A stretch of DNA of 64,000 nucleotides, from sequence record LR597663, one strand, 5' to 3'. Source of the stretch: Escherichia phage VpaE1_ev78. The position numbers were made by a program, and so were the translations under genes. The notes below the pieces were generated by a model. It was given only the letters and a program-made list of their open reading frames with translations, was not told where the DNA came from and searched no databases. Positions 5,513 through 32,097 of this stretch are shown piece after piece (the first letter of the stretch is position 1; every line of letters begins with the position of its first letter).

Positions 5513-5531
5513 CATTTCAGGAGATTGTTAA

Positions 5532-7818: not shown

Positions 7819-7889
7819 GAAACTCTGTAGAATATTCACAATAGACCAAGCCTTTCTTATCTGGTAAATTTTTCAGGTAAGGAGGGCTT

Positions 7890-8082
7890 TTTCATTTCAG
7901 AATTGTGCAGGTAGATTTCTATAGAGAAACCTGTAGAGAAAATATTGAACTCCAAAGAGAAAATTCATTTTCAAACTGTGCAGATAATCTCCAAAGAGCT
8001 TTTTCATTTTCAAAACGTGCAGACCCCGCTCAGGTCGGGCAAGAAAAATCATTTTAGATTTGTGCAGGTAGGTTTTTATAGA
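7890..8082 (+). repeat. Four tandem promoter-like repeats TTTCATTTTCA..TGTGCAGG(N9)TATAGA in a 0.5 kb leader
   Basis: TGTGCAG-type cores at about 7904, 7977, 8016 and 8061, each preceded by TTTCATTT; two copies followed 9 nt later by TATAGA. Confidence 0.5.
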
Positions 8083-22746: not shown

Positions 22747-23114
22747 TTCTTTTTAGCCTCTAAATGTGCGTTTAGTCTAAAATAACCTTTGTGATGCGGA
22801 GATACATCACCAACAACAATACCTTTGACCTTATAACCTTTACCAATTACATACTGGATATCCATAAGGAATCTTCCAAGACCAACAATATGGAACATTG
22901 GATATAATAGATTCTCAGAATCTGGAATATTGATTTCAGGTTTGTAGGTGCGTTGTTCGCTTGTTGGTGTAATATCTTCTTCAGGCCATTTACTGAGTCT
23001 CCATGTCAAAGGTGTTGGGATAACATCATTAAGGTTGTACCTTTCACCATTTTGCACGGAATTGATATAGGATTGTAGGAAGCAATAAAAGTCTTTTGCA
23101 CTCTTAGCCTTCAT
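22743..23114 (-). CDS. Paralog of the N-terminal domain of the Ig-repeat protein
   Basis: 123 aa; aligns with residues 1-130 of the neighbour (MKAK..DF..F...I..V..G.RY, W.PE.DI, YKP, LLY, FLMD.QY). Confidence 0.5.
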   Translation of the reverse strand: MKAKSAKDFYCFLQSYINSVQNGERYNLNDVIPTPLTWRLSKWPEEDITPTSEQRTYKPEINIPDSENLLYPMFHIVGLGRFLMDIQYVIGKGYKVKGIVVGDVSPHHKGYFRLNAHLEAKKK

Positions 23115-23161
23115 TAAATATCCTTATAAATAGTTAAAGGGGCATCAGCCCCTATTCACAC

Positions 23162-23752
23162 TTAAGCTTTGGTCTTAAGTAGGTTCTTAAGTTTTTTAAG
23201 ATTCATACTCTCATCAAACTTAAAACCAAATCCATTGACATAATCAATGAACTCGGATTTCTTACTAAGTGACAATGCGTAACTCATATCAAAGTTCTTA
23301 CTTGTTTCTGCGTCTGGACTAGAGTTCACATCAAATGAAATTTCTGTAGGTTCTTGCTTACTTTTTCTCATATTATCAACCAACAAACATGTATAGTTTG
23401 CTGGATAGAAGTTTACACTACCATCAACGTAGCTGTACTTATTATTATGGATAAGGTTTGAAAATACCTTAAGGAATGTTTCTGAGTCGTGGCAAACAAG
23501 TTTGAATTGGCTGCTCTCTCCAAGCGCAACTAATGAGTACGGACTTTCACTATCAAAGTCATAATTTGGATTCGATGCCGTTACTGTTACACGCATCAAG
23601 TTATTAGCAATAGTCTTCTGTTTAAAAGAATTTTGAACATAGTGAAGACCTCTATCACACTGATTGACTAGCTCTTTAAGTAGGTCATTTGCATATGGCG
23701 AATTAATTGATACAGAGCCATCACTATTGTAATTAAAACTTACTGTTAACAT
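23162..23752 (-). CDS. Hypothetical protein
   Basis: 196 aa ORF. Confidence 0.45.
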   Translation of the reverse strand: MLTVSFNYNSDGSVSINSPYANDLLKELVNQCDRGLHYVQNSFKQKTIANNLMRVTVTASNPNYDFDSESPYSLVALGESSQFKLVCHDSETFLKVFSNLIHNNKYSYVDGSVNFYPANYTCLLVDNMRKSKQEPTEISFDVNSSPDAETSKNFDMSYALSLSKKSEFIDYVNGFGFKFDESMNLKKLKNLLKTKA

Positions 23753-23979
23753 TTTTCAGTTCTCCTGCGATTTATAATTTTGCTGCAATAGAGAAACGAA
23801 GTAAACTCACTGGAAGAAACCATTAAGTGTTGTTCACTAGATTGAGCCATTGCCCTGAAATACATTCCAGTCAAAGCATCATAGTGACTATTCTTTCCAA
23901 TTGAGGTTATATAGCCATGACTCTTTGCAGTTTGATATAAATCTATAATATCTGCGATTTCTAATTGGGAACTACACAT
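23746..23979 (-). CDS. Hypothetical protein
   Basis: 77 aa ORF. Confidence 0.35.
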   Translation of the reverse strand: MCSSQLEIADIIDLYQTAKSHGYITSIGKNSHYDALTGMYFRAMAQSSEQHLMVSSSEFTSFLYCSKIINRRRTEKC

Positions 23980-24143
23980 AGATAATCCTCTTGTCTTCTG
24001 TAATTTTGAAAGAACAGGTACAGACCAATTTCAGAGGATGAATAGTAGATTAACTCTACCCTTTTTGATTCCTTACAGTGATTGGTATTCTTACCTTTCT
24101 TCGGTTTATTTGATTTTCTCATTAAGTCTCCTTTGTAGAACAA
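23961..24143 (-). CDS. Hypothetical basic protein, first gene of minus-strand operon
   Basis: 60 aa ORF. Confidence 0.3.
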   Translation of the reverse strand: MFYKGDLMRKSNKPKKGKNTNHCKESKRVELIYYSSSEIGLYLFFQNYRRQEDYLCVVPN

Positions 24144-24371
24144 GGCAGACCTACAGCTTTAAGTAAGATGGTACAGTAATCCATACAACAAGTCAAGAAC
24201 TATTGCAAGTTAAAAAAGTTGTTGACAAAGTACTTGACAAGGTGTAGGCTTATAAATACTTAGAAGATAACTTAAAAGGTTCCTCTAAAAAGGCTATTTA
24301 AACAGATATCTTTCTGGATATCTATCTTTTATCTTAAAAGCCTTTTAAGAGGTCTTATAAGAGGCATACCA

Positions 24372-24743
24372 ATGAAAAACAGAACAAACAAAGGCCAGTT
24401 TAAAAAAGGCCAATCTGGAAACCCATCTGGAAGACCAAAAGGCTCTCGTAACAAAAGTTCACTTGTAAAAGCTCAACTGACCATTGATAATTCTGCTGAG
24501 TTTGCTGCAAAGTTGTTTGAAGCGATTGTTACAAGGGACGCTGCTAAGCTTGCAGAGTTCGGTTTGACGACTGACGATGTAAACCTGAAGTCGATGATGG
24601 AAGCTGGTAAAACTATCATGACTCACTCAGCAGGTGAGATGAAAGCGATTGCAGCAGACACTAAGAAGACACCTGATAATGGTGGTCAGTCTCAGGCAGA
24701 TAACAAACCAACGTTCTCTGCTGTAGCGACTCTCAAAAAATAA
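24372..24743 (+). CDS. Hypothetical protein with N-terminal GNPSGRPKG motif
   Basis: 123 aa; FKKGQSGNPSGRPKGSRNKS near N-terminus. Confidence 0.45.
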   Translation: MKNRTNKGQFKKGQSGNPSGRPKGSRNKSSLVKAQLTIDNSAEFAAKLFEAIVTRDAAKLAEFGLTTDDVNLKSMMEAGKTIMTHSAGEMKAIAADTKKTPDNGGQSQADNKPTFSAVATLKK

Positions 24744-24755
24744 TTTTAAAAGGTG

Positions 24756-24785
24756 TTGACAGACTCTACAAAGTTGCTCTAAAGT
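24756..24785 (+). promoter_or_regulatory. Sigma70-like promoter (TTGACA-18-TAAAGT)
   Basis: Consensus -35 and TAAAGT -10 upstream of the vWA gene. Confidence 0.5.
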
Positions 24786-24824
24786 CTGTCACATCAAACA
24801 ACAAATGAGAGAAGAGAGTAAAAT

Positions 24825-26240
24825 ATGAGCGAATTATTTAAACATGCGCACCTTCATGCAGGTCGAACTGAAAATGGTGCTGTAAACCATACTTCATCAA
24901 TGTCTGCTCTTGTGGACTTTTATAAAGCTGCTGGTTCAAGCCGTAGCAATGTAGAAGTCTTACCAGACCTGTTCTACAAAGCTTTGCGTGAGGATGTTGA
25001 TGTTGCAGTTCGTATTTTGCTTCATATGCGAGATGTACGAGAAGGTATGGGTGAGCGTAAAGCCTTCAGAACTGTTTTGCTTCAAGCGATTGAAGACAAA
25101 GTTTTAGAGCCTGTACAGGTTCTTCGCATTATGGATAAGATTGCAGAACTTGGTCGTTTTGATGACTTCAAAATCTTCGTAGGTACTCGTTTCGAGACAG
25201 ATGCCTTCAAACATTTAGAAGCAGCATTACTAGACCCTGCAACAGCAGGTTTGGCAGCCAAGTGGCTACCACGAGTCAAACCACGTCATAAGCAGTTTGT
25301 AAAACGTTTCTGCAAGTTTGCCAACTTGAGTGAGAAAGAGTACCGCACACTGTTGTCTGCACTATCTGATACAGTTGAGCAAAAAATCTCTGCTAATGAG
25401 TTTGGTAAGATTGACTACAGTAAGATTCCTTCTCTTGCTGCTGCACGTTACCAAAAGCTGTTTAACCGTAAAGATGGAGAGCGTTACAAAGCTTACATCG
25501 AGTCCTTATCAAAGGGTGAGGCTAAGATTAATGCTGGTGCTGTTTACCCATACGATGTGATTAAATCTGTCAAGCATGGTAATGCAGATGTTGCTAATGA
25601 GCAGTGGAAAGCACTACCAAACTGGATGGCAGAAGGTGAAAACATCTTATGTATGACTGATGTTTCAAGCTCAATGTCTTGGGTGAATTTTGGCTCCATT
25701 ACTGCTCTTGATATTGGTGTATCACTTGCCTTGTATGTAGCAGAACGCAATACAGGTTGCTTTAAGGATGAGTTGATGGTTTATTCAACAAACCCTCACT
25801 TCATCGAACTGAGTGGTGATTTACGAAACCGTCATCGTCAGGTGATGCGACACGTTGAATATGGCTCAACCAACTTACAAGCAGCTTTTGACCGCATTCT
25901 TGAGATAGGTAAGAGAAACAACTTGACTCAGGAAGATATGCCAAGTAAGCTTATCATCTTCTCCGATATGGAGTTCAATCAGGTTGATGGAGCTAACGGT
26001 CGTACAAACTTTGAAGCAATTCAGAGCAAGTACAAGAAAGCTGGATATGAGATGCCACAACTGGTATTCTGGTACTTAGCAAACCGTAATGGTACTTGCG
26101 AAGTGTCTGTTAAGGATAACGGTGTAGCAATGGTATCTGGTTTCTCTCCAGCCACTTTAAAAGCTCTGCTTGGTGGTGAGAAGTTTGACCCAATCAGCGT
26201 AATGCTCAAAGCAGTAATGATTGACCGCTATATCTGGTAA
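24825..26240 (+). CDS. vWA-domain protein with helical N-terminal domain (possible TROVE/Ro60-like architecture, unverified)
   Basis: 471 aa; C-terminal about 190 aa has MIDAS-like D-x-S-x-S (MTDVSSSMS) and later acidic motif FSDMEFNQ typical of von Willebrand A domains. Confidence 0.5.
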   Translation: MSELFKHAHLHAGRTENGAVNHTSSMSALVDFYKAAGSSRSNVEVLPDLFYKALREDVDVAVRILLHMRDVREGMGERKAFRTVLLQAIEDKVLEPVQVLRIMDKIAELGRFDDFKIFVGTRFETDAFKHLEAALLDPATAGLAAKWLPRVKPRHKQFVKRFCKFANLSEKEYRTLLSALSDTVEQKISANEFGKIDYSKIPSLAAARYQKLFNRKDGERYKAYIESLSKGEAKINAGAVYPYDVIKSVKHGNADVANEQWKALPNWMAEGENILCMTDVSSSMSWVNFGSITALDIGVSLALYVAERNTGCFKDELMVYSTNPHFIELSGDLRNRHRQVMRHVEYGSTNLQAAFDRILEIGKRNNLTQEDMPSKLIIFSDMEFNQVDGANGRTNFEAIQSKYKKAGYEMPQLVFWYLANRNGTCEVSVKDNGVAMVSGFSPATLKALLGGEKFDPISVMLKAVMIDRYIW

Positions 26241-26258
26241 AAAGTTTTAAAAAGGGTA

Positions 26259-26287
26259 TTGACAATGTGTTTAATACCCTTTAATAT
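26259..26287 (+). promoter_or_regulatory. Sigma70-like promoter (TTGACA-17-TAATAT) ahead of tRNA array
   Basis: Consensus hexamers; embedded in an 8 bp inverted repeat agggtatt/aataccct. Confidence 0.55.
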
Positions 26288-26349
26288 GTTCTACATAGAA
26301 ACGAAATGAGAGCTTTTCTAAGATACTGAAAAATATTTTAAAAAAGTTC

Positions 26350-26379
26350 TTGACAATCACTAAAAAATAATGTTAAAGT
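26350..26379 (+). promoter_or_regulatory. Sigma70-like promoter (TTGACA-18-TAAAGT) ahead of first tRNA
   Basis: Consensus -35 and TAAAGT -10 about 25 nt upstream of tRNA at 26406. Confidence 0.55.
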
Positions 26380-26405
26380 GGTTACATAGAGTTTGAAAAG
26401 TTTAT

Positions 26406-26482
26406 CTCTGTTTAGCTCAGCTTGGTAGAGCGTTCCGTTTGGGGCGGTAAGGCCGGAGGTTCAAGTCCTCCAACAGAGACCA
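26406..26482 (+). tRNA. tRNA-Pro (anticodon TGG), CCA encoded
   Basis: 7 bp acceptor ctctgtt/aacagag, D-loop with GG, T-arm ggagg-ttcaagt-cctcc; hand-folded. Confidence 0.55.
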
Positions 26483-26489
26483 AATTAAT

Positions 26490-26567
26490 GTTCCAGTAGA
26501 CAAAATGGTAAAGTCACCACTCTTTCAAAGTGGATATCTGAGGGTTCAAATCCCTTCTGGAACGCCA
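26490..26567 (+). tRNA. tRNA-Glu (TTC)
   Basis: Acceptor gttccag/ctggaac, anticodon stem ccact/agtgg with loop ctTTCaa, T-loop ttcaaat, CCA encoded. Confidence 0.6.
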
Positions 26568-26574
26568 GTTTTGA

Positions 26575-26648
26575 CAGAAGACCAATTGCAGCAAACTTAA
26601 TCTTATTCATCTGAAGGTAAATCGGACAAAGAAGAGATTTGGTCTGGT
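26575..26648 (+). repeat. Inverted-repeat-bracketed element, copy 1 (cagaagacca ... tggtctgg)
   Basis: Conserved 5' end cagaagacc(a/g)..t.cagcaa and 3' end ggtctgg shared by four elements; ends are mutually complementary. Confidence 0.55.
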
Positions 26649-26658
26649 CATTAAGAAT

Positions 26659-26735
26659 TGCGGGTATAGAGAAAGGGCGTCTCACATGTCTCATTAGCAT
26701 GGTATCGGCAGGTTCGACTCCTGCACCCGCCTCCA
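26659..26735 (+). tRNA. tRNA with CAT anticodon (Met/Ile2/initiator type); acceptor register uncertain
   Basis: D-stem gaga/tctc, anticodon stem catgt/gcatg with loop ctCATta, T-arm gcagg-ttcgact-cctgc; 1-72 appears mismatched. Confidence 0.4.
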
Positions 26736-26741
26736 AATTTA

Positions 26742-26806
26742 CAGAAGACCGTTTACAGCAATATTTATTAAATTTTTAGCGGAAAAAATTGAAAGATACG
26801 GTCTGG
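26742..26806 (+). repeat. Inverted-repeat-bracketed element, copy 2
   Basis: 5' acagaagaccgtttacagcaa identical to copy 4; 3' cggtctggtaa. Confidence 0.55.
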
Positions 26807-26819
26807 TAACACTAAACAT

Positions 26820-26896
26820 GGTTAGGAAGCACATAAGGTATGTGCGGTCGCCTGTTAAGCGAATGGCACAGGGTTCGAATCCCTGACTAACCGCCA
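26820..26896 (+). tRNA. tRNA-Asn (GTT)
   Basis: D-stem gcac/gtgc, anticodon loop ctGTTaa, T-arm caggg-ttcgaat-ccctg, CCA encoded. Confidence 0.55.
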
Positions 26897-26905
26897 AATT
26901 TAAAT

Positions 26906-26993
26906 GTGTCGTTATCCCGTAGATGGTAGCGGTGGGGACTGTAAATCCCTTGTCATTGAGACTCGGTAGGTTCGACTCCTACACGGCACACCA
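26906..26993 (+). tRNA. tRNA-Tyr (GTA), long variable arm
   Basis: Acceptor gtgtcgt/acggcac, anticodon loop ctGTAaa, 88 nt with extra arm, T-arm gtagg-ttcgact-cctac, CCA encoded. Confidence 0.6.
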
Positions 26994-26998
26994 ATAAA

Positions 26999-27076
26999 GG
27001 TTATGTAGTTTAATTTGGTTAAAATACTCCCCTGTCACGGGAGATGATGAGGGTTCAAATCCCTTCGTAACCGCCA
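26999..27076 (+). tRNA. tRNA-Asp (GTC)
   Basis: Acceptor ggttatg/cgtaacc, anticodon stem ctccc/gggag with loop ctGTCac, T-loop ttcaaat, CCA encoded. Confidence 0.65.
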
Positions 27077-27137
27077 ATTTTGAGAGGGCTATTTAGCCCC
27101 TCCCTTAAAGAGTTCTTACGAGTATTCTTTAAAGGAG

Positions 27138-27211
27138 CAGAAGACCAAATACAGCAAGTTATTTAAAATTTCAAGCCAATTTAATTTTGAAAAATTTAAA
27201 ACTTGGTCTGG
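27138..27211 (+). repeat. Inverted-repeat-bracketed element, copy 3
   Basis: cagaagaccaaatacagcaag ... cttggtctgg. Confidence 0.5.
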
Positions 27212-27224
27212 CTCAACAAATTTA

Positions 27225-27355
27225 CAGAAGACCGTTTACAGCAAAACTTAACAATCTATTTCTCCGGTAAAGAAAAGGCGAAGGTTCGATTCCTTCACTC
27301 GGCAGATGTCGAGTTGGTGTAATGGTAGTACTTAAGATGATAAACAACGGTCTGG
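27225..27355 (+). ncRNA. Inverted-repeat-bracketed element, copy 4, carrying tRNA-like fragments (candidate structured ncRNA or decayed tRNA)
   Basis: Same conserved ends as copy 2; interior has a T-arm gaagg-ttcgatt-ccttc (27280-27296), a 7 bp hairpin (27297-27314) and a D-arm-like tggtgtaatggtagtac, but no anticodon arm. Confidence 0.4.
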
Positions 27356-27504
27356 TAATTATCTTTGTAGATAAGTTATTAAGCTTACCTGTGAGTATGC
27401 GACCACAAAGGGTGAAAGGGTAAATTCTAGATTTAAACCCAAAAAGGCACATCGCTACAGACCTTAAGCAAGTCTGGGTAGCTTATCTACAAAGATAATT
27501 TAAT

Positions 27505-27580
27505 GGAAGTGTAGCAGAATGGTGATGCGGCAGACTTTTAATCTGACAGGCGATGGGTTCGAATCCCTCCACTTCTACCA
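27505..27580 (+). tRNA. tRNA-Lys (TTT)
   Basis: Acceptor ggaagtg/cacttct, anticodon loop ctTTTaa, T-loop ttcgaat, CCA encoded; T-stem appears short. Confidence 0.5.
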
Positions 27581-27584
27581 ATAT

Positions 27585-27661
27585 GGTTCAGTCGCAGATA
27601 AGGTAATGCAAGGGTCTCATAAGCCCTATGAATGTGGGTTCGATTCCCATCTGAACCTCCA
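27585..27661 (+). tRNA. tRNA-Met (CAT)
   Basis: Acceptor ggttcag/ctgaacc, anticodon stem agggt/gccct with loop ctCATaa, T-arm gtggg-ttcgatt-cccat, CCA encoded. Confidence 0.6.
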
Positions 27662-27662
27662 A

Positions 27663-27738
27663 GCTGGTATAGTTAAGAAGGTTATAACACTCCCCTGATA
27701 AGGGAACATCGGTGGTTCGATTCCACCTACCAGTACCA
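27663..27738 (+). tRNA. tRNA-Ile (GAT)
   Basis: Acceptor gctggta/taccagt, D-stem gtta/taac, anticodon loop ctGATaa, T-arm ggtgg-ttcgatt-ccacc, CCA encoded. Confidence 0.65.
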
Positions 27739-27753
27739 ATTTCAATAAAGTTG

Positions 27754-27782
27754 TTGACATTGAGATGTGACTACTTTATAGT
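27754..27782 (+). promoter_or_regulatory. Sigma70-like promoter (TTGACA-17-TATAGT) inside tRNA region
   Basis: Consensus -35, 17 nt spacer, TATAGT -10. Confidence 0.55.
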
Positions 27783-27986
27783 AACCTTAGTTTTCGTTGC
27801 GTAGCGTCTATTTTGCAAATTTAAAATAAATGCAAACGACAATGTTTTTCTGGCAGTAGCTTGATAGGCTAAACACCAGTGAGGTCTTCCAATCCCTCAT
27901 CAAAGAATTTGGCGTACTCGCCCACGGTATGATTAATAAGGTGGGCATCTTTAAGGGCTTTCTAAGAGAGTCTTTAAAGATAATTA

Positions 27987-28068
27987 CGGGGCGTATCTCA
28001 GCGGTCTTCTAAACCGCCGTTAACCGAGTAAGTGGAGTATGCGGGTTCGAGTCCTGCCGCCTCGACCA
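27987..28068 (+). tRNA. Atypical tRNA-like gene (no clear D-arm; anticodon-type loop ctTCTaa); identity unresolved
   Basis: Acceptor cggggcg/cgcctcg, T-arm gcggg-ttcgagt-cctgc and CCA present; only one perfect 5 bp stem-loop in the body, 23 nt between it and the T-arm. Confidence 0.3.
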
Positions 28069-28082
28069 ATTTTGGAGAAATC

Positions 28083-28430
28083 ATGAAAACTTGTATTAGG
28101 TGCAAACTTAGCAAGGATGAAAATGATTTCTACATGAAAGATGGTAGGAGAACTCATTCATACTGTAAAAAGTGTGTTAATGAGCAAACCATAGAAAGAC
28201 AAAGAGCACTTAAACTCTCAGCTATTGAGTACAAAGGTGGGGTTTGTCACGATTGTGGTAAAAAGTATCATCCAGCAGTGTATGACTTCCATCATTTGAA
28301 TCCTTCAGAGAAAGATTTTAACATTGGTCATAGGAAAAGCCTTAAGTTCTCTCAAGAACTAAAAGATGAACTTGACAAATGTGTTTTGCTATGTTCAAAT
28401 TGCCATAGGGTAAGACATGCAAAGTATTAG
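28083..28430 (+). CDS. HNH endonuclease with N-terminal zinc finger
   Basis: Start at ATG (MKTCIRCK) with GGAG RBS; CxxC...CxxC then DFHHLNP...LLCSNCHRVRH (HNH motif); track start 28032 lies in the upstream tRNA. Confidence 0.6.
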   Translation: MKTCIRCKLSKDENDFYMKDGRRTHSYCKKCVNEQTIERQRALKLSAIEYKGGVCHDCGKKYHPAVYDFHHLNPSEKDFNIGHRKSLKFSQELKDELDKCVLLCSNCHRVRHAKY

Positions 28431-28573
28431 TTAGCAGATTACTTAGACGACCTAAGCGGGTCTTCCTGTAGGGAGGTGGTCTGTATCTCATGTTTTCCAG
28501 AACATGTAAATAATCTGAGAAGAAGCTTGACAGTGTTGAGATAACAGGGTAAGCTTCGAATTATAGTTTTAAT

Positions 28574-28644
28574 AGGGGTGAGCTATGGCAGCAATAGAGT
28601 CTCCAAAATTCTTGATTAGAGTTCGAATCTCTACACCCCTGCCA
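28574..28644 (+). tRNA. tRNA-Trp (CCA)
   Basis: Acceptor aggggtg/cacccct, anticodon loop ctCCAaa, T-arm tagag-ttcgaat-ctcta, CCA encoded. Confidence 0.5.
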
Positions 28645-28658
28645 GAACAGGTGCTTGT

Positions 28659-29063
28659 ATGAAACTTTGTAGAAAATGTTCTCAAGAAAAGCCTTTAAGC
28701 TGCTTTCATAAAAGAGGTAATGGCTATCAGTCTGCTTGCAAAGATTGTAAAGCTAAGTACTCAGCAAAGAGATACAAAGAAGACCCTACTTATAAAGCAA
28801 AAAGAAAAGTTAGGGCAAAATATGACAAAAAGAGGAACAGAGAGTTCCTTAGTAGATATAAAAAGTTTTGCAAATGCAGAATATGTGGCGAATCTGAGCC
28901 AGTAGCTTTGGATTTTCATCACTTAGACCCTAAAGAGAAAGATTTTGCTCCAAGCAATCTTAAAACTTACTCTAGGGGCACTATTAAGCGTGAAGTCCGT
29001 AAGTGTGTTGTGCTTTGTTCAAACTGTCATAGGAAAGTTCATGAAGGACTGTTAAGTATTTAA
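28659..29063 (+). CDS. HNH endonuclease with N-terminal zinc finger (paralog of 28083-28430)
   Basis: 134 aa; CRKCSQEK...CKDC zinc finger and DFHHLDPKEKDF...VLCSNCHRKVH HNH motif. Confidence 0.6.
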   Translation: MKLCRKCSQEKPLSCFHKRGNGYQSACKDCKAKYSAKRYKEDPTYKAKRKVRAKYDKKRNREFLSRYKKFCKCRICGESEPVALDFHHLDPKEKDFAPSNLKTYSRGTIKREVRKCVVLCSNCHRKVHEGLLSI

Positions 29064-29076
29064 CAGTCTTATTAGG

Positions 29077-29164
29077 GGTAGGTAGCGGCTAATGGTAGCC
29101 AAACTGTCTTGAAAACAGTTGCCACTGTAGAGATACGGTGAGGGTTCGACTCCTTTACTTACCG
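29077..29164 (+). tRNA. tRNA-Ser (TGA), long variable arm
   Basis: Acceptor ggtaggt/acttacc, anticodon stem actgt/acagt with loop ctTGAaa, 88 nt with extra arm. Confidence 0.6.
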
Positions 29165-29323
29165 CCTAATAAGATTTAAAGCCAAGCTTCATTCGGATGT
29201 TGCTTTGGTATCCCGCGTGTATTGTTGTACACACTGATAAAGCACCTAGTAGGTGTCACGGAGAAGAGATAATATCAAGCTCTCCAAAGGTTCTAGTCAC
29301 CGGATTAAACAAGACTATGCAAA

Positions 29324-29350
29324 GACCTTTTTAGGTCTTTTTAGAGGGCT
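29324..29350 (+). terminator. Terminator-like hairpin
   Basis: aaagacc-ttttta-ggtcttt followed by TTAG. Confidence 0.4.
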
Positions 29351-29421
29351 TCTAAGGTTATTACAGCTTGTTGTGGAACCTTGTTGCTTAGGTTCTTAGA
29401 AGTTCTCTAAAAAGATTTAAT

Positions 29422-29499
29422 GGGAGATTGACGGTAATTGGTAAACCTATCTCGCTTAGAACGAGATGTTTGAGGGTTCGAATCCCTTGTCTCCTACCA
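29422..29499 (+). tRNA. tRNA with anticodon TAG (Leu-type) but short variable loop
   Basis: Acceptor gggagat/gtctcct, perfect anticodon stem tctcg/cgaga with loop ctTAGaa, T-arm gaggg-ttcgaat-ccctt, CCA encoded; only 5 nt variable region. Confidence 0.45.
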
Positions 29500-29506
29500 A
29501 ATTAAT

Positions 29507-29582
29507 GCAGGTGTAGCAAAATGGTTATGCGGCTGACTCTTAATCAGTAAGACGATGGGTTCAATTCCCTCCACCTGTACCA
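29507..29582 (+). tRNA. tRNA-Lys (CTT)
   Basis: Acceptor gcaggtg/cacctgt, anticodon loop ctCTTaa, T region gatgggttcaattccctcc like the Lys(TTT) gene, CCA encoded. Confidence 0.5.
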
Positions 29583-29587
29583 AAAAT

Positions 29588-29663
29588 GGGGTCATAGTTT
29601 ATATGGTTAAAATTCGAGTTTTGCAAACTTGGGAACTGAGTTCAATTCTCAGTGACTCCACCA
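29588..29663 (+). tRNA. tRNA-Ala (TGC)
   Basis: Acceptor ggggtca/tgactcc, anticodon stem cgagt/acttg with loop ttTGCaa, T-arm ctgag-ttcaatt-ctcag, CCA encoded. Confidence 0.6.
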
Positions 29664-29669
29664 ATTAGT

Positions 29670-29744
29670 GCATCCATAGTTTAAACGGGAAAATTACAGT
29701 CTTCCAAACTGAGGTTGAGGGTTCGATTCCCTCTGGATGCTCCA
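29670..29744 (+). tRNA. tRNA-Gly (TCC)
   Basis: Acceptor gcatcca/tggatgc, anticodon loop ctTCCaa, T-arm gaggg-ttcgatt-ccctc, CCA encoded. Confidence 0.6.
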
Positions 29745-29751
29745 AATTAAT

Positions 29752-29827
29752 GCTCCTATCGTATAATTGGCTATTACGGTTGCCTTGTAAGTAACTTATC
29801 AGGGTTCGAATCCTTGTGGGAGCACCA
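29752..29827 (+). tRNA. tRNA-Thr (TGT)
   Basis: Acceptor gctccta/tgggagc, anticodon stem gttgc/gtaac with loop ctTGTaa, T-loop ttcgaat, CCA encoded. Confidence 0.6.
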
Positions 29828-29924
29828 ATTTAGAGGTCAAGTGAAAGACCGCTTTGAGTCAACTGAAGACCGTAACAAATTCCACGGAGTTGAGTTAGCG
29901 GCACAACTCCAGACCTCTTCTCAC

Positions 29925-29999
29925 ACTCGCTTAGTTTATATGGTAAAACACCACCCTTACAAGATGAAGAAAAAGGTTCAAGTCCTTTAGTGAGTACCA
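29925..29999 (+). tRNA. tRNA, anticodon uncertain (possibly TAC, Val)
   Basis: Acceptor actcgct/agtgagt, T-arm aaagg-ttcaagt-ccttt, CCA encoded; anticodon stem pairs poorly. Confidence 0.4.
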
Positions 30000-30000
30000 T

Positions 30001-30078
30001 GTTCCAGTATCCCAATTGGCAGAGGATGCAAGCTCAAACCTTGTACTAGTGATGGTTCGAATCCATCTTGGAACACCA
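30001..30078 (+). tRNA. tRNA with anticodon CAA (Leu-type) but short variable loop
   Basis: Acceptor gttccag/ttggaac, anticodon stem gcaag/cttgt with loop ctCAAac, T-arm gatgg-ttcgaat-ccatc, CCA encoded. Confidence 0.45.
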
Positions 30079-30083
30079 ATTTT

Positions 30084-30159
30084 GCAGGATTAGTTCAAAT
30101 GGATAGAGCAACAGTCTACGAAGCTGTTAATAGGGGTTCAAATCCCTTATCCTGCGCCA
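30084..30159 (+). tRNA. tRNA-Arg (ACG)
   Basis: Acceptor gcaggat/atcctgc, anticodon stem acagt/gctgt with loop ctACGaa, T-loop ttcaaat, CCA encoded. Confidence 0.6.
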
Positions 30160-30178
30160 ATTTAAAGAGGCTATTTAG

Positions 30179-30736
30179 ATGAGATATTTGAAGTATGCTT
30201 CATGGATTTTCTTAGCTTTGTTAGAACCATTTGCAGCAATCTTAGCAGTTATCTTAGCACCTTTTGTAGTTCCATTCTACAGTGAGAAGAAAGGACACTT
30301 ACCTTTCGGGTTCAGATGGATGGAGACATATGACAACCCAATTGATGGTGATGAAGGTCACGTTAAAAGATGGGCTAATATTAGATGGATTGGTAAACTA
30401 GGTGTCTACATGCAAAGAGTCGGATGGCTCTGGAGAAACAAAGCTTATAACTTCTCTTACCATGTGTTAGGAAGAGATGTAAAAGATGTTACTAAGTGGA
30501 AAGGTAATATCAACGTAAGTTCTAACCCTGAAGATAATCAGACAGGTTATCTCCTAATGTGGAACAGTAATGCTTGGGGATTATTCGCTTTTACCCCATC
30601 AATTAAAATCTTTGGTAAACAGTTTTACTGGAGAATTTATATTGGGTGGAAGCTAAAAAGTGTTGTCCCAGAAGAAAGAGCATTCTCAAGGGAAAGAGTT
30701 ATGTTGGCATTCTTTATTCATCCACTAAGAAAGTAA
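30179..30736 (+). CDS. Hypothetical membrane protein embedded in tRNA array
   Basis: 185 aa; AAGAGG RBS; hydrophobic N-terminus WIFLALLEPFAAILAVILAPFVVPF; Trp-rich. Confidence 0.5.
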   Translation: MRYLKYASWIFLALLEPFAAILAVILAPFVVPFYSEKKGHLPFGFRWMETYDNPIDGDEGHVKRWANIRWIGKLGVYMQRVGWLWRNKAYNFSYHVLGRDVKDVTKWKGNINVSSNPEDNQTGYLLMWNSNAWGLFAFTPSIKIFGKQFYWRIYIGWKLKSVVPEERAFSRERVMLAFFIHPLRK

Positions 30737-30744
30737 AGATTTAA

Positions 30745-30820
30745 AGGGGATTAGTTTACAAGGTTAAAACCTCGGTCTTTGAAATCGAAGAAGTTGGTTC
30801 AATTCCAACATCCCCCGCCA
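30745..30820 (+). tRNA. tRNA-Gln (TTG)
   Basis: Acceptor aggggat/atccccc with 1-72 mismatch, anticodon loop ctTTGaa, T-arm gttgg-ttcaatt-ccaac, CCA encoded. Confidence 0.5.
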
Positions 30821-30822
30821 AT

Positions 30823-30901
30823 GCTCCATTACTCCAATTGGCAGAGAGGCCAGACTTAAAATCTGTGTTATGTATCGGTTCGAATCCGATATGGAGTACC
30901 A
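30823..30901 (+). tRNA. tRNA with anticodon TAA (Leu-type), atypical fold
   Basis: Acceptor gctccat/atggagt, 4 bp anticodon stem with loop ctTAAaa, T-arm atcgg-ttcgaat-ccgat, CCA encoded; 8 nt variable region. Confidence 0.4.
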
Positions 30902-30905
30902 AATT

Positions 30906-30981
30906 TAGCGGTATAGCATAACTGGCAATGCAGCAGCCTCTGAAGCTGTCCTATTAAGGTTCAAATCCTTATGCCGCTGCC
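30906..30981 (+). tRNA. tRNA-Gln (CTG)
   Basis: Acceptor agcggta/tgccgct, anticodon stem gcagc/gctgt with loop ctCTGaa, T-loop ttcaaat, CCA encoded. Confidence 0.5.
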
Positions 30982-31012
30982 ACTTCTAAGGATTCTTACG
31001 AGAGTCCTTAAA

Positions 31013-31088
31013 TGTGGCCTTATCATAAATGGTAATGACCCATGCTGTGAACATGGTCTATACGGGTTCAAATCCCGTAGGTCACCCC
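31013..31088 (+). tRNA. tRNA-His (GTG)
   Basis: Acceptor gtggcct/aggtcac, D-stem tcat/atga, perfect anticodon stem ccatg/catgg with loop ctGTGaa, discriminator C, CCA encoded. Confidence 0.65.
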
Positions 31089-31092
31089 AATT

Positions 31093-31168
31093 TATAGTCC
31101 AAGTAGCTTATATGGTTAAAGCGCGTGTCTGAAAAACATGAGAAGAGGGTTCAAATCCCACTGGACTA
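31093..31168 (+). tRNA. tRNA-Phe (GAA)
   Basis: Perfect 7 bp acceptor tagtcca/tggacta, anticodon stem cgtgt/acatg with loop ctGAAaa, T-loop ttcaaat. Confidence 0.6.
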
Positions 31169-31187
31169 CCAATTTCAAAGGTGCTTA

Positions 31188-31922
31188 ATGAAAGAGATGA
31201 CAGAACAAGGTAAGGAGATTTTTAATCTCTTAAAAACCGGTAAAGGGTTCTCTAACCCACTTATTACTGGTGCAGCAGTTCTCGGTGGAACCGTAGCTGC
31301 TTCTACATCACTTGTAAGCTCTATTAGTTCTGTAACAGACCCTACAATGAAGGAGAAACTTGTTGCTGCTGGACTTACAACAGTCCTTCTAAACAGCTTT
31401 ACAACAAGCCTTACAAGCACTACAGCAACTACTAAAACTCTGACAGACTACGGTCAAAAGTCTATTGATGAGTTTTCATCACGTATGCAGGTAGCAAAGG
31501 GGTATTCCAATGTTATGGGTGCAGCAGGAGAACAAGTTGGTTGTACACCATTCAGTGGTATCATGGGTGTTGCTACAGAGTATGGTCAAAAAGCTATTGA
31601 CATGATGAACAGTACACTAGATAGTGTTAATGGTGTGTTAAGTGACTTGCAAGATGCTATTGATAAGGGTCTTGATACTGTTTCTGATTTAGCTAATCAG
31701 GCTGTTAGTAAGATTAATGAAGGTATTTCAAAGATTACAGCTTATGCAGATGAAGTTGTGCAGATGATTGAAGAAGAAGCTGCCCTTATTGCAGAGTACC
31801 TTAAAACGAATATCAATGGGTTCTTAGCAGGTATCTTACCAGACTGGTTTGATGATGCCTGTAAAACTGGTGTGATTGACACTATTGCAACACCAGAAAT
31901 GAAGAGCGCATTACAGAAATAA
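31188..31922 (+). CDS. Hypothetical Ser/Thr-rich protein
   Basis: Start at internal ATG (MKEMTEQ) with AAAGGTG RBS, because track start 31125 lies inside tRNA-Phe. Confidence 0.45.
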   Translation: MKEMTEQGKEIFNLLKTGKGFSNPLITGAAVLGGTVAASTSLVSSISSVTDPTMKEKLVAAGLTTVLLNSFTTSLTSTTATTKTLTDYGQKSIDEFSSRMQVAKGYSNVMGAAGEQVGCTPFSGIMGVATEYGQKAIDMMNSTLDSVNGVLSDLQDAIDKGLDTVSDLANQAVSKINEGISKITAYADEVVQMIEEEAALIAEYLKTNINGFLAGILPDWFDDACKTGVIDTIATPEMKSALQK

Positions 31923-31924
31923 AT

Positions 31925-32017
31925 GGAAGATTAACCCTAAAAGGTAAGGGAGCAGTTTGCTAAACTGCCAGTAGCTGAGAAATCGGTGTACCAGTTCAAG
32001 TCTGGTATCTTCCTCCA
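31925..32017 (+). tRNA. tRNA-Ser (GCT), long variable arm
   Basis: Acceptor ggaagat/atcttcc, anticodon stem gcagt/actgc with loop ttGCTaa, 93 nt with extra arm, CCA encoded. Confidence 0.65.
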
Positions 32018-32021
32018 ATTT

Positions 32022-32097
32022 GAATCCGTGACAGAAATGGCTATGTGCCTGTCTGCAAAACAGGTTTATAAGGGTTCGAGTCCCTTCGGATTCTCCA
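32022..32097 (+). tRNA. tRNA-Cys (GCA)
   Basis: Acceptor gaatccg/cggattc, anticodon stem cctgt/acagg with loop ctGCAaa, T-arm aaggg-ttcgagt-ccctt, CCA encoded. Confidence 0.65.

What the first reader, a model, noticed from the sequence alone, without database searches (positions are those of the whole stretch)
24825..26240. vWA-domain protein just upstream of the tRNA array; possible Ro60/TROVE-like partner for tRNA-like RNAs
The C-terminal about 190 aa carries a MIDAS-type D-x-S-x-S motif (MTDVSSSMS) and later conserved acidic positions, as in von Willebrand A domains. The N-terminal about 270 aa looks helical. A helical N-terminal domain followed by a vWA domain is the layout of Ro60 orthologues, which bind tRNA-like Y RNAs. 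The gene has its own sigma70-like promoter and sits next to the tRNA and tRNA-like elements. The TROVE assignment is a hypothesis from architecture only.
Basis: inference. Interest (0 to 1): 0.6.

Follow-up and report, generated by a model that had tools for sequence, protein, structure and literature searches.

The report
Phage Ro60-like protein with Y-like RNAs
This Felix O1-type phage gene encodes a ring-shaped RNA-binding protein that resembles the human Ro60 autoantigen in predicted fold only, and the tRNA cluster just downstream encodes a so far unannotated family of small structured RNAs (one a tRNA mimic) that are its likely partners, a gene pairing that recurs in about half of the unrelated phage groups examined.

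Summary
Window 24825-26240 (+) is a 471-aa ORF with a helical N-terminal part and a C-terminal vWA domain carrying a complete MIDAS motif. The first tRNA starts 165 nt downstream.

The RNA side appears to be new. Four elements in the adjacent tRNA array (26572-27358) share a covarying two-part basal helix and a CAGCAA motif. One of them (27222-27358) carries a permuted T arm, closed acceptor hairpin and D arm, as YrlA Y RNAs do. A covariance model built only from Felix-like phages finds full-length matches next to DUF2828 genes, on the same strand, in Klebsiella, Cronobacter, Sinorhizobium, Bacillus, Enterococcus and Mycobacterium phages. It finds none in the tRNA region of phage T5, where no such gene is annotated.

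Best reading: a sequence-divergent Ro60/Y-RNA system. Binding and physiological role are untested.

The parts
24756..24785 (+). sigma70-like promoter candidate for the gene (TTGACA-18-TAAAGT)
   Evidence: 10 of 12 consensus positions matched, with a perfect -35 box, 40 nt upstream of the ATG. This is a consensus match only.
24825..26240 (+). CDS of 471 aa: Ro60-fold protein of the DUF2828/DUF7788 family (PHROG 850)
24825..25619 (+). N-terminal helical-repeat domain (aa 1-265), equivalent to the TROVE/HEAT ring of Ro60. It includes the N-terminal strand motif T15-E-N-G-A and the conserved motifs R69-D-x-R-x-G-x-G-E-R, G110-R-W-D-D and A-K146-W-L-P-R
25644..26174 (+). vWA domain (aa 274-450) with MIDAS residues D279, S281, S283, T349 and D381
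   Evidence: Pfam DUF7788 E 5e-44 and VWA_2 E 7.5e-4. The profile aligns to the Ro60 MIDAS region specifically. All five residues are invariant across 14 lineages.
26190..26237 (+). C-terminal helix (aa 456-471) that follows the vWA domain, so the vWA domain is inserted in the helical domain as in Ro60 and phiRo60
   Evidence: helix 456-464. The phiRo60 domain description is in PMC12135203. Whether this helix packs back onto the helical domain is inferred, because model coordinates could not be inspected.
26259..26379 (+). two promoter-like sites (26259-26287 and 26350-26379) ahead of the tRNA / Y-like RNA array
   Evidence: both match 10 of 12 positions with a perfect TTGACA.
26572..26650 (+). 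E1: simple Y-like RNA candidate between tRNA-Glu and tRNA-Met (outer stem UGAC/GUCA, AGA bulge, inner stem AGACCAA/UUGGUCU, UGCAGCAA motif, G bulge)
   Evidence: R1 scores it 35.8 bits. Syntenic copies in diverged relatives carry compensatory changes.
26739..26809 (+). E2: simple Y-like RNA candidate between tRNA-Met and tRNA-Asn
   Evidence: R1 scores it 47.5 bits. It also gives a sub-threshold match of 20.5 bits to Rfam Dicty_Class_I_RNA.
27135..27214 (+). E3: simple Y-like RNA candidate
   Evidence: (folding z-score -2.68). R1 did not list it at E<=1, but its counterpart in L084 scores 25.9 bits.
27222..27358 (+). E4: YrlA-like RNA. Same basal helix and UACAGCAA motif, then an anticodon-arm-like hairpin, a T arm (27280-27296), a closed 7-bp acceptor-like hairpin and a D arm with GG
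   Evidence: 98% of cells paired; 14 of 30 pairs show compensatory changes; the Rfam tRNA model aligns the anticodon arm, variable region and T arm.
26406..32097 (+). array of 26 tRNA genes in which E1-E4 are embedded, interrupted by HNH endonuclease ORFs

Best explanation
The gene encodes a Ro60-type protein: a helical-repeat ring with an inserted vWA/MIDAS domain. It belongs to the sequence-distinct DUF2828/DUF7788 family.

Proposed mechanism:
1. The protein is made from its own promoter.
2. The adjacent tRNA array is transcribed from the two promoter-like sites that follow the gene.
3. The host enzymes that cut out the tRNAs also release four small RNAs, E1-E4, that lie between them.
4. Each of these RNAs has a covarying two-part basal helix (an A-N-A bulge on the 5' strand, invariant AG...CU pairs, a single bulged G) next to a single-stranded CAGCAA motif. 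This module sits where canonical YrlA RNAs carry their GNCGAA Ro-binding motif, and it is the likely docking site for the protein.
5. E4 adds a permuted tRNA-like domain (T arm, closed acceptor hairpin, D arm), as YrlA does.
6. By analogy with Rsr/YrlA/PNPase and with phiRo60/Yrl/PNPase, the resulting particle would either act on misfolded or damaged RNAs, above all tRNAs, or capture a host exoribonuclease during infection.

Shown here: the predicted fold, the retained MIDAS site, the existence and covariation of the RNAs, and the gene-RNA linkage in seven of the 14 phage groups examined.
Inferred: protein-RNA binding, RNA maturation by tRNA-processing enzymes, and the downstream role.
For: Fold:
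- AlphaFold2 model with pLDDT 89 and pTM 0.89.
- The 12 best Foldseek matches in the PDB are all Ro60 proteins aligned over their full length (E 7e-9 to 4e-7, TM 0.40-0.66); the next match is a vWA domain alone at E about 1e-3.
- The MIDAS residues are invariant.
- The only weak sequence matches of the family profile to vWA proteins in the PDB are Ro60 itself.

RNAs:
- The 5' motif CAGAAGACCNNNTNCAGCAA occurs four times in 800 nt and nowhere else in the window without mismatches (0.79 matches expected).
- All four elements fold to the same basal structure.
- Syntenic copies in relatives whose protein is 54-80% identical carry compensatory changes in both stems.
- For E4-type elements RNAalifold predicts the basal helix, T arm, closed acceptor hairpin and D arm, with 14 of 30 pairs compensatory.
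- 98% of cells are paired against 86% in shuffles; the covariation score is 0.334 against 0.120, reached by 0 of 500 shuffles.

Linkage:
- Model R1, built only from Felix-like phages, gives full-length matches of 46-68 bits within about 2.7 kb of the DUF2828 gene, on the same strand, in Klebsiella, Cronobacter, Sinorhizobium, Bacillus, Enterococcus and Mycobacterium phages.
- The cross-lineage alignment is 96% paired, with 27 of 30 pairs compensatory.
- A descriptor for the T arm, closed acceptor hairpin and D arm finds 15 sites, all on the gene's strand, against 0.2 per shuffled replicate.
- Rfam YrlA gives sub-threshold matches (34-38 bits, E 6e-5 to 9e-4) on the same sites in three lineages, and aligns CAGCAA to its GNCGAA motif.
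- In the tRNA region of T5, where no such gene is annotated, the best R1 matches are partial, tRNA-type and at most 23 bits.

Context:
- tRNA arrays lie on the same strand as the gene in most lineages.
- An RtcB-type 'tRNA splicing ligase', RNA ligases or CCA-adding enzymes lie nearby in Listeria, Xanthomonas and Cronobacter phages.

Precedent:
- YrlA genes lie within 4 kb of Ro60 genes on the same strand (PMC4201824).
- Phage phiRo60 binds Yrl RNAs and host PNPase (PMC12135203).
Against: - There is no Pfam TROVE match. hhalign against human Ro60 aligns only the vWA part, with probability 42%.
- The structure is a prediction, and I could not inspect coordinates for ring closure or surface charge.
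- E4 gives no Rfam YrlA match at E<=10, and the canonical GNCGAA motif is absent.
- In Vibrio and Xanthomonas phages no convincing element was found. In Campylobacter, Fusobacterium, Listeria and the two Staphylococcus phage groups the matches were weak or ambiguous.
- The cross-lineage alignment A3 was fitted to the model, so its pair counts lean towards the model's structure.
- In Felix-like phages and in Staphylococcus phage 6ec the gene sits between a small-terminase-like gene and the large terminase gene, and one database record calls a homologue 'structural protein'.
- No expression, processing or binding data exist for this phage.
Confidence: 0.65

Rival explanations
1. The protein has a Ro60 fold and checks the quality of phage or host tRNAs directly, for instance by binding misfolded or cleaved tRNAs through a central cavity. 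Under this view E1-E4 are not its ligands. They are structured spacers that guide processing of the polycistronic tRNA transcript.
For: The gene lies next to tRNA arrays in most lineages examined. E1-E4 sit a few nucleotides from tRNA ends. Ro60 is known to bind misfolded RNAs without any Y RNA (PMC12135203 introduction).
Against: The same RNA module accompanies the gene where there is no dense tRNA array around it: Mycobacterium phage Whirlwind, Sinorhizobium phiM7 and Cronobacter LPCS28. The T5 tRNA array has no such elements. A sequence motif conserved across phages of different bacterial phyla suits a protein-binding site better than a spacer.
Confidence: 0.15
2. It is a vWA/MIDAS protein that works through protein-protein contacts in DNA packaging or virion assembly, either as a co-chaperone or as a minor structural protein. 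The resemblance to Ro60 would then be only a shared scaffold.
For: The gene lies between a DUF5681 (small-terminase-like) gene and the large terminase gene in Felix-like phages, and between the small and large terminase genes in Staphylococcus phage 6ec. One record names a homologue 'structural protein'. MIDAS sites usually bind protein ligands.
Against: Most lineages place the gene beside tRNA or RNA-repair genes, not beside terminase genes. No AAA+ MoxR-type partner is annotated nearby. The full-length fold match is to Ro60 alone. The linked RNA family would be left unexplained.
Confidence: 0.08
3. The particle is an anti-defence decoy. The tRNA-like RNA, held by the protein, would soak up or mislead host nucleases or sensors that target tRNAs, rather than taking part in RNA quality control.
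For: E4 mimics the elbow of a tRNA (T and D arms) but lacks a normal acceptor end. Phage tRNA arrays and RNA-repair genes are commonly read as counter-measures to tRNA cleavage (my own knowledge). Overexpression of the cluster L homologue LeBron gp53 is moderately toxic to the host (PMC13148394).
Against: There is no direct evidence. The simple elements E1-E3 have no tRNA-like part. The one phage Ro60 protein studied so far acts on PNPase.
Confidence: 0.1

Closest known systems
Ro60 / Rsr (TROVE + vWA) with Y RNAs, in particular bacterial Rsr with YrlA (Chen et al. 2014, PMC4201824)
   Same: - Predicted fold: a helical-repeat ring with an inserted vWA domain and a complete MIDAS site.
- Partner-RNA genes lie within a few kb on the same strand.
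- There are several RNAs per locus, and at least one carries a permuted tRNA-like domain in the order T arm, closed acceptor stem, D arm.
- Association with RNA repair genes in some genomes.
   Different: - No TROVE Pfam match; identity to Ro60 is 10-14% in the structural alignments.
- The helical domain is about 85 residues shorter than in vertebrate Ro60.
- The RNA carries CAGCAA and an AG...CU-G basal helix instead of GNCGAA or GGUCCGA.
- The RNAs are embedded in a phage tRNA array rather than placed next to the gene as separate units.
phiRo60 of Thermus phage phiLo with Yrl1 and Yrl2 (PMC12135203; PDB 9kop, 9l5y)
   Same: - A phage-encoded Ro60-fold protein of similar size (502 aa against 471 aa).
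- The vWA domain is inserted in the helical domain.
- Similar spacing of the metal-binding residues: D322/S324/T391/D416 there, D279/S281/T349/D381 here.
- Y-like RNA genes lie nearby.
   Different: - No detectable sequence similarity: the family profile does not find it in the PDB at E<=10.
- Yrl1 and Yrl2 carry a CGAA motif and lie upstream of the gene.
- Binding to RNA and to PNPase has been shown there and has not been tested here.
'Ro-like RNA-binding protein' of cluster L mycobacteriophages (for example Whirlwind gp55 and LeBron gp53), PHROG 850
   Same: The same protein family: 34% identity over the full length, with the same Pfam domains. An R1 match of 48 bits lies 100 nt downstream of Whirlwind gp55.
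   Different: These phages are temperate siphoviruses with a single nearby tRNA gene rather than a large array. In the literature I searched, the only experimental datum is toxicity of LeBron gp53 on overexpression.
Class I RNAs of dictyostelid amoebae (Rfam RF01414; Kjellin et al. 2021, PMC7919456)
   Same: - A terminal stem of variable, covarying sequence flanked by conserved (A)AG at the 5' end and CUG(U) at the 3' end.
- An adjacent single-stranded motif, CCUUACAGCAA, whose most conserved positions (U3, C6, C9, A10, A11) are all present in the phage UUUACAGCAA.
- A variable remainder and a length of about 60 nt.
- The Rfam model gives sub-threshold matches exactly on phage elements.
   Different: - These are eukaryotic RNAs transcribed from their own promoters.
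- They have no outer stem and no tRNA-like versions.
- The phage scores (16-25 bits) are far below the gathering score of 41.5.
- Their known direct binder is an RRM protein, CIBP.
- Whether Dictyostelium has a DUF2828 protein could not be checked here.

Membership tests
DUF2828/DUF7788 phage protein family (PF11443 + PF25043; PHROG 850) | Significant matches to both Pfam models and to the PHROG profile over the full length | tested here: met
   PF25043 E 4.8e-44, PF11443 E 6.3e-30, and phrog_850 E 6.4e-184 covering residues 1-471. 709 phage records hold a homologue.
Ro60 / TROVE family | Match to the Pfam TROVE model (PF05731), or sequence similarity to Ro60 orthologues across the helical domain | tested here: not met
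   No TROVE match at E<=1. phmmer and the family profile against the PDB give only a weak match to the Ro60 vWA region, E about 0.5. hhalign against human Ro60 aligns residues 265-381 only, probability 42%.
Ro60 / TROVE family | Three-dimensional architecture: a helical-repeat ring with an inserted vWA domain | tested here: met
Ro60 / TROVE family | MIDAS motif (DxSxS...T...D) in the vWA domain | tested here: met
   D279, S281, S283, T349 and D381 are invariant in 16 proteins from 14 lineages.
Ro60 / TROVE family | Y RNA gene or genes close by on the same strand | tested here: met
   E1-E4 lie 330-1120 nt downstream on the + strand. Related RNAs lie within about 2.7 kb of the gene in six other lineages, all on the gene's strand.
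Ro60 / TROVE family | Binding of Y RNA, and of misfolded RNA in the central cavity; association with PNPase or other exoribonucleases | not testable with these tools
   This needs biochemistry or RNA immunoprecipitation.
YrlA RNA (Rfam RF02553), for element E4 | Rfam gathering score (69 bits) and the 5' GNCGAA(N)G motif | tested here: not met
   No YrlA match at E<=10 in the window. Related phage elements reach 34-38 bits. CAGCAA occupies the position of the motif.
YrlA RNA (Rfam RF02553), for element E4 | Architecture: terminal stem, then T arm, closed acceptor-like stem and D arm in that order | tested here: met
   The RNAalifold consensus and the pair counts support it, including a 7-bp acceptor-like hairpin in which 6 of 7 pairs show compensatory changes.
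Dictyostelid Class I RNA (Rfam RF01414), for elements E1-E3 | Rfam gathering score (41.5 bits); terminal 6-bp stem plus the 11-nt CCUUACAGCAA motif | tested here: not met
   The score is not met: 20.5 bits for E2, 16.6 for E3, and 24-25 for two Klebsiella-phage elements. The stem, the motif and the flanking G...CUG are present by inspection.
MoxR-associated vWA co-chaperones | An adjacent AAA+ MoxR ATPase gene | tested here: not met
   No such gene is annotated within 6 kb in wV8 or in the other 13 lineages. Neighbouring proteins were not all scanned individually.

The most novel reading that the evidence does not exclude
DUF2828/DUF7788 proteins and RNAs built as 'AAG - variable stem - UACAGCAA ... 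stem - CUG' may form an ancient ribonucleoprotein system, parallel to Ro60 and Y RNAs, that is shared by phages and eukaryotes.

On this reading the abundant Class I RNAs of dictyostelid amoebae are the eukaryotic counterpart of the phage RNAs found here, and their conserved partner would be a DUF2828 protein. [quoted passage not shown]

The idea rests on the matching RNA architecture and motif and on my recollection that Pfam describes DUF2828 as found in eukaryotes and viruses. I could not check that recollection, nor whether Dictyostelium has such a protein, because the AlphaFold-database library was unavailable and the 2011 pull-down paper is not held.
Probability: 0.2. Interest if true: 0.88.

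Novelty: new variant of a known kind. Interest (0 to 1): 0.7.

Why it matters
Ro60/Y-RNA particles are a conserved RNA surveillance device that is still poorly understood. Only one phage version, from a Thermus phage, has been studied biochemically.

- If the reading here is right, a second Ro60-type family that is unrelated in sequence is present in about 1.4% of deposited phage genomes (709 of 50,697 records). These include Felix O1-like phages and phages of Listeria, Staphylococcus, Enterococcus, Campylobacter, Vibrio and Mycobacterium.
- In seven of the 14 phage groups examined it comes with its own class of partner RNAs, which current annotation misses because they sit below Rfam thresholds inside tRNA arrays.
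- That would give a function to 'junk' spacers in phage tRNA clusters, and a defined RNA motif (CAGCAA plus a bulged helix) to test for binding.
- It offers tractable E. coli and Salmonella phage systems in which to ask what Ro60-type particles do during infection: tRNA repair or quality control, capture of PNPase, or defence evasion.
- The motif shared with Dictyostelium Class I RNAs, if it is more than coincidence, would point to a protein partner for an RNA class whose function is open.

Tried and rejected
- Direct sequence routes to Ro60 gave little. phmmer and the family profile against the PDB gave only E of about 0.5 on the Ro60 MIDAS region. hhalign of the family alignment against human Ro60 aligned only the vWA part. 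I ran no further search on building a TROVE profile, because the structural result was already decisive.
- Rfam at gathering thresholds sees only tRNAs in the window. YrlA gives no match on E4 even at E<=10.
- The literature search for DUF2828 found five papers that only mention it in passing, with no functional study.
- The supplementary tables of Chen 2014, which list the phages concerned, are not held. Instead I showed by tblastn that the Mycobacterium-phage homologues all have genomes of 68-77 kb in the rows listed (cluster L size). No record of about 155 kb appeared, which is the genome size of the cluster C1 phages to which I believe ET08 belongs.
- The 3' half-motif GGTCTGGT on its own is not informative (50 matches, 35 expected).
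- The AlphaFold-database fold search, meant to find eukaryotic DUF2828 proteins, was unavailable. Avesson 2011 and Aspegren 2004 are not held, and the Kjellin supplements do not describe DDB_G0281243.
- R1 with filters off found nothing convincing in Vibrio, Campylobacter, Xanthomonas or Fusobacterium phage loci, and only matches of 14-20 bits in the two Staphylococcus phage groups.
- I judged some R1 and descriptor matches to be false positives caused by tandem tRNAs (for example L006 2078-2207, window 29416-29551 and L009 4613-4746). The confident matches all score at least 35 bits.
Full report
**1. What is there**

The window is a Felixounavirus (Felix O1-like myovirus). Positions 23000-30000 are about 97% identical to phage wV8 and to many Salmonella and E. 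coli phages.

The ORF 24825..26240 (+) is real: ATG start, 471 aa. It follows a DUF5681 gene (24372-24743) in a rightward transcription unit. That unit continues through 26 tRNA genes (26406-32097), interrupted by HNH endonuclease ORFs, to the large terminase gene.

A promoter-like site with a perfect -35 box lies 40 nt upstream of the ATG. Two more lie between the gene and the first tRNA.

**2. The protein**

Pfam assigns DUF2828 (residues 171-264, E 6e-30) and DUF7788 (275-455, E 5e-44), plus a weak VWA_2 match. There is no TROVE match. PHROG 850, labelled 'RNA-binding protein', matches end to end (E 6e-184).

tblastn finds full-length homologues in 709 of 50,697 phage records. Their hosts include Escherichia, Salmonella, Mycobacterium, Vibrio, Listeria, Staphylococcus, Campylobacter, Enterococcus, Bacillus and others. 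Depositors call them 'RNA-binding protein', 'Ro-like RNA binding protein', 'DUF2828', 'vWFA protein' and, once, 'structural protein'.

An AlphaFold2 model built on 46 homologues is confident: pLDDT 89.2, pTM 0.89. It shows about 18 helices, then a vWA domain, then a final helix.

- Foldseek against the PDB: the 12 best matches are all Ro60 proteins aligned over their full length. They are Thermus phage phiLo Ro60 (9kop, 9l5y), Xenopus Ro60 (1yvr, 1yvp, 2i91), human Ro60 (9nfa and others) and Deinococcus Rsr (2nvo), with E from 7e-9 to 4e-7. The next match is a vWA domain alone, at E about 1e-3.

Sequence methods barely see the relationship. The family profile finds only the Ro60 MIDAS region at E about 0.5, and hhalign against human Ro60 aligns the vWA part only.

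Across 16 proteins from 14 phage lineages (26-58% identical to the window protein) the following are invariant: the five MIDAS residues, and T15, G18, R69, G74, G76, G110, D114, K146, E185 and W261 in the helical domain.

Two features of the model recall known Ro60 structures. The N-terminal segment is predicted as a beta strand (residues 20-22); in Xenopus Ro60 the N-terminus adds strands alongside the vWA domain. The helix after the vWA domain mirrors the split-domain arrangement described for phiRo60. Both comparisons are inferences, because I could not inspect the model's coordinates.

**3. The neighbouring RNAs**

Reading the spacers of the tRNA array showed four repeats that begin CAGAAGACCnnnTnCAGCAA. 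There are four exact matches in 800 nt and none elsewhere in the 64 kb, against 0.79 expected at the search setting used.

Each folds into the same base:
- an outer stem of 4 bp whose sequence differs between copies (UGAC/GUCA, UUAC/GUAA, GAGC/GCUC);
- a three-base bulge, AGA;
- an inner stem of 7-8 bp that starts with AG and ends with CU;
- one bulged G on the 3' side;
- a single-stranded (U/A)(A/G)CAGCAA directly after the 5' strand of the inner stem.

E1 (26572-26650), E2 (26739-26809) and E3 (27135-27214) have short variable tops.

E4 (27222-27358) carries, in order:
- an anticodon-arm-like hairpin;
- a T arm, GAAGG-UUCGAUU-CCUUC;
- a closed 7-bp hairpin, ACUCGGC-AGAU-GUCGAGU;
- the dinucleotide UG;
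- a D arm, GUGU-AAUGGUA-GUAC.

This order (T arm, closed acceptor stem, D arm) is the one that defines YrlA, the tRNA-mimicking Y RNA bound by bacterial Ro60 (PMC4201824).

**4. Conservation and covariation**

About 25 Felix-like contigs in IMG/VR carry the same four elements with the same spacing.

In more distant relatives, whose protein is 54-80% identical and whose gene order is the same (DUF5681, DUF2828, tRNA array, terminase), the elements at the corresponding positions keep the structure while changing sequence:
- inner stem: AGACCAA/UUGGUCU becomes AGUAUC/GAUACU or AGAAUC/GAUUCU;
- outer stem: UGAC/GUCA becomes GAAC/GUUC;
- closed acceptor-like hairpin: ACUCGGC/GUCGAGU becomes ACACG/CGUGU, CGUGG/CCACG or CGCUCCCA/UGGGAGUG.

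For 12 distinct E4-type sequences, RNAalifold predicts all six helices on its own, and 14 of 30 pairs show compensatory changes. The pair counts give 98% of cells paired against 86% in shuffles, and a covariation score of 0.334 against 0.120 that none of 500 shuffles reaches. With the 3' partners slid by 1-3 columns the score is at most 0.109.

**5. Linkage to the protein in other phage groups**

I fetched the DUF2828 locus from 13 further phage groups.

The gene lies on the same strand as nearby tRNA genes:
- inside or beside a tRNA array in phages of Klebsiella (22 nt from the nearest tRNA), Campylobacter (about 200 nt), Bacillus (650 nt), Listeria (660 nt) and Enterococcus (1.3 kb);
- within 1-3.5 kb of tRNA genes in the Mycobacterium, Staphylococcus 6ec, Sinorhizobium, Cronobacter and Vibrio phages.

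RNA-repair or tRNA-maturation genes are close in three cases: an RtcB-type 'tRNA splicing ligase' and an RNA ligase in Listeria, and an RNA ligase or a CCA-adding enzyme in Xanthomonas and Cronobacter.

A simple descriptor for a T arm, a closed hairpin and a D arm finds 15 sites in 292 kb. All are on the strand of the gene. Shuffled sequence gives 0.2 per replicate.

The covariance model R1, built only from the Felix-like E4 alignment, finds full-length matches in six other groups, all on the gene's strand and within about 2.7 kb of the gene:

| Phage group (locus) | Match | Bits |
|---|---|---|
| Enterococcus (L091) | 5340-5472 | 68 |
| Enterococcus (L091) | 5525-5653 | 40 |
| Klebsiella (L002) | 7840-7961 | 65 |
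| Klebsiella (L002) | 7699-7830 | 58 |
| Bacillus (L009) | 4200-4333 | 60 |
| Mycobacterium phage Whirlwind (L005) | 7517-7654 | 48 |
| Cronobacter (L088) | 7941-8070 | 46.5 |
| Sinorhizobium (L008) | 3276-3407 | 46 |
| Sinorhizobium (L008) | 4528-4652 | 29 |

The aligned matches share this consensus:
- an outer stem, then A;
- AG followed by 5-7 further paired bases;
- two or three bases, then CAGCAA;
- the V hairpin, T arm, closed acceptor-like hairpin and D arm;
- the returning strand of the stem, ending in CU;
- a G or U, then the outer stem.

In this alignment 96% of cells are paired and 27 of 30 pairs show compensatory changes. The G:C pair of the AG...CU end is invariant. The caveat is that this alignment was fitted to the model.

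Independent support comes from Rfam. Its YrlA model gives sub-threshold matches (34-38 bits; gathering score 69; E 6e-5 to 9e-4) on exactly these sites in the Mycobacterium, Klebsiella and Sinorhizobium phages. In its alignment the phage CAGCAA falls on the model's GNCGAA Ro-binding motif.

Controls:
- In the 64-kb window, R1 matches only E4, E2 and E1, plus low-scoring tandem tRNAs.
- In the tRNA region of phage T5 (25 tRNAs and 8 annotated stable RNAs in 30 kb, with no gene of this kind annotated), R1 gives only partial tRNA-type matches of at most 23 bits.

Limits:
- Two groups (Vibrio, Xanthomonas) gave nothing convincing.
- Five groups gave only weak or ambiguous candidates: Campylobacter, Fusobacterium, Listeria and the two Staphylococcus phage groups.
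- Overall, seven of the 14 groups, counting the Felix-like phages, have a strong match.

**6. How it probably works**

The best-supported reading is a Ro60/Y-RNA system in a divergent guise.
- Shown here: a predicted Ro60 fold with an intact MIDAS site; a family of structured RNAs with strong covariation; and their conserved same-strand linkage to the gene in phages of Proteobacteria, Firmicutes and Actinobacteria.
- Inferred: the protein binds the bulged helix and CAGCAA module.
- Inferred: the RNAs are released from the tRNA transcript by the tRNA-processing enzymes, because their outer stems begin and end a few nucleotides from tRNA ends.
- Inferred: the particle acts on damaged or misfolded tRNAs, or recruits or blocks a host exoribonuclease. 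Rsr, YrlA and PNPase do this in bacteria, and phiRo60 with its Yrl RNAs does it to Thermus PNPase.

The only experimental hint for this family that I found is that LeBron gp53, a cluster L 'Ro-like RNA-binding protein', is moderately toxic when overexpressed in M. smegmatis (PMC13148394).

**7. What is already known**

The published phage YrlA RNAs (Chen 2014) were sought in genomes annotated as encoding TROVE-domain proteins. The Mycobacterium-phage homologues of the present family listed by tblastn have genomes of 68-77 kb, the size of cluster L. No record of about 155 kb appears, which is the size of the cluster C1 phages to which I believe the published example ET08 belongs (my own knowledge). 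The RNA partners of DUF2828 proteins therefore seem not to have been described. I found no paper on them, and Rfam does not annotate them at its thresholds.

I rate the whole as a new variant of a known kind.

**8. An unexpected echo**

Rfam's model of Dictyostelium Class I RNAs gave weak matches exactly on simple phage elements: 25 and 24 bits on two Klebsiella-phage elements, 20.5 on E2 and 16.6 on E3, against a gathering score of 41.5.

Class I RNAs are abundant RNAs of about 60 nt whose function is unknown. They are described as a terminal stem of variable, covarying sequence, flanked by conserved AAG and CUGU, next to an 11-nt motif, CCUUACAGCAA. The most conserved positions of that motif are U3, C6, C9, A10 and A11 (PMC7919456). 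Example sequences are; DdR-21 reads GUUGAC-CUUACAGCAA...GUCAAC-UG. The phage element E2 reads AAGACCG-UUUACAGCAA...CGGUCU-GG, which has the same plan and the same conserved positions.

One of the four proteins pulled down with a Class I RNA, DDB_G0281243, has no known function. I could not check whether it, or any dictyostelid protein, belongs to DUF2828. This remains a lead, and I give it a probability of about 0.2.

**9. Verdict**

- Observation: confirmed.
- Interpretation: supported at the level of fold and genomic context, with the caveat that the protein is not a sequence member of the TROVE family.
- The most valuable outcome is the partner-RNA family and its recognisable motif, which make the hypothesis directly testable.

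Noticed in passing
window 27357-27506 (+): A fifth structured element directly after E4 and before tRNA-Lys. It has a closing stem of about 24 bp around a multi-branched core, with a minimum free energy of -47.9 kcal/mol and a z-score of -5.95. A hairpin loop with CUUAAGCAAG recurs at the same position in diverged relatives. It has no CAGCAA motif in the window, but in L085 the corresponding region seems to be enclosed by a basal helix of the CAGCA type.
   Followed up: partly
window 27740-28070 (+): A promoter-like TTGACA is followed by about 230 nt without an ORF that give weak Rfam matches to permuted tmRNA and tmRNA (29 and 16 bits). A tRNA-like sequence at 27987-28065 is detected by Rfam (31.7 bits) but not by ARAGORN, and it overlaps the start of the HNH ORF 28032-28430.
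   Followed up: no
L002 7551-7604 and 7635-7689; window 26747-26805 and 27143-27210: Sub-threshold matches to Rfam Dicty_Class_I_RNA (25, 24, 20.5 and 16.6 bits) fall exactly on simple CAGCAA elements. These elements share the stem, the UACAGCAA motif and the flanking G...CUG with dictyostelid Class I RNAs.
   Followed up: partly
window 24372-24743 (+): A DUF5681 protein of 123 aa with a basic N-terminus (KGQSGNPSGRPKGSRNK) lies directly upstream, and this position is conserved in all the Felix-like relatives examined. In Staphylococcus phage 6ec the gene at the same position is annotated as the small terminase subunit, so DUF5681 may be the small terminase that is otherwise not annotated in these phages.
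   Followed up: no
window 28032-28430 and 28659-29063 (+): Two paralogous HNH endonuclease ORFs sit inside the tRNA array. Their number and positions differ between related phages, which suggests mobile homing endonucleases.
   Followed up: no
window 26251-26282 (+): A 12-bp hairpin directly after the stop codon contains the -35 box of the first promoter-like site of the tRNA array. It could act as a terminator that overlaps a promoter.
   Followed up: no
window 21613-22746 (-): A protein annotated as a tail protein carries three tandem immunoglobulin-like repeats in its C-terminal two thirds. The number of repeats varies among relatives, whose proteins are 294-470 aa long.
   Followed up: no
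L093 (phage T5, NC_005859 28000-41600): The tRNA region of T5 carries eight annotated 'stable RNAs with unknown functions', three of them described as tRNA-like. None resembles the CAGCAA family according to R1. They may be a different solution to a similar problem.
   Followed up: partly
L087 9238-9338 and L085 9487-9587: A second tRNA-like variant in distant Felix-like relatives has the same basal helix and a T arm, but a 7-bp A/U-rich closed hairpin and a reduced D arm. R1 scores these at 45 and 41 bits.
   Followed up: partly
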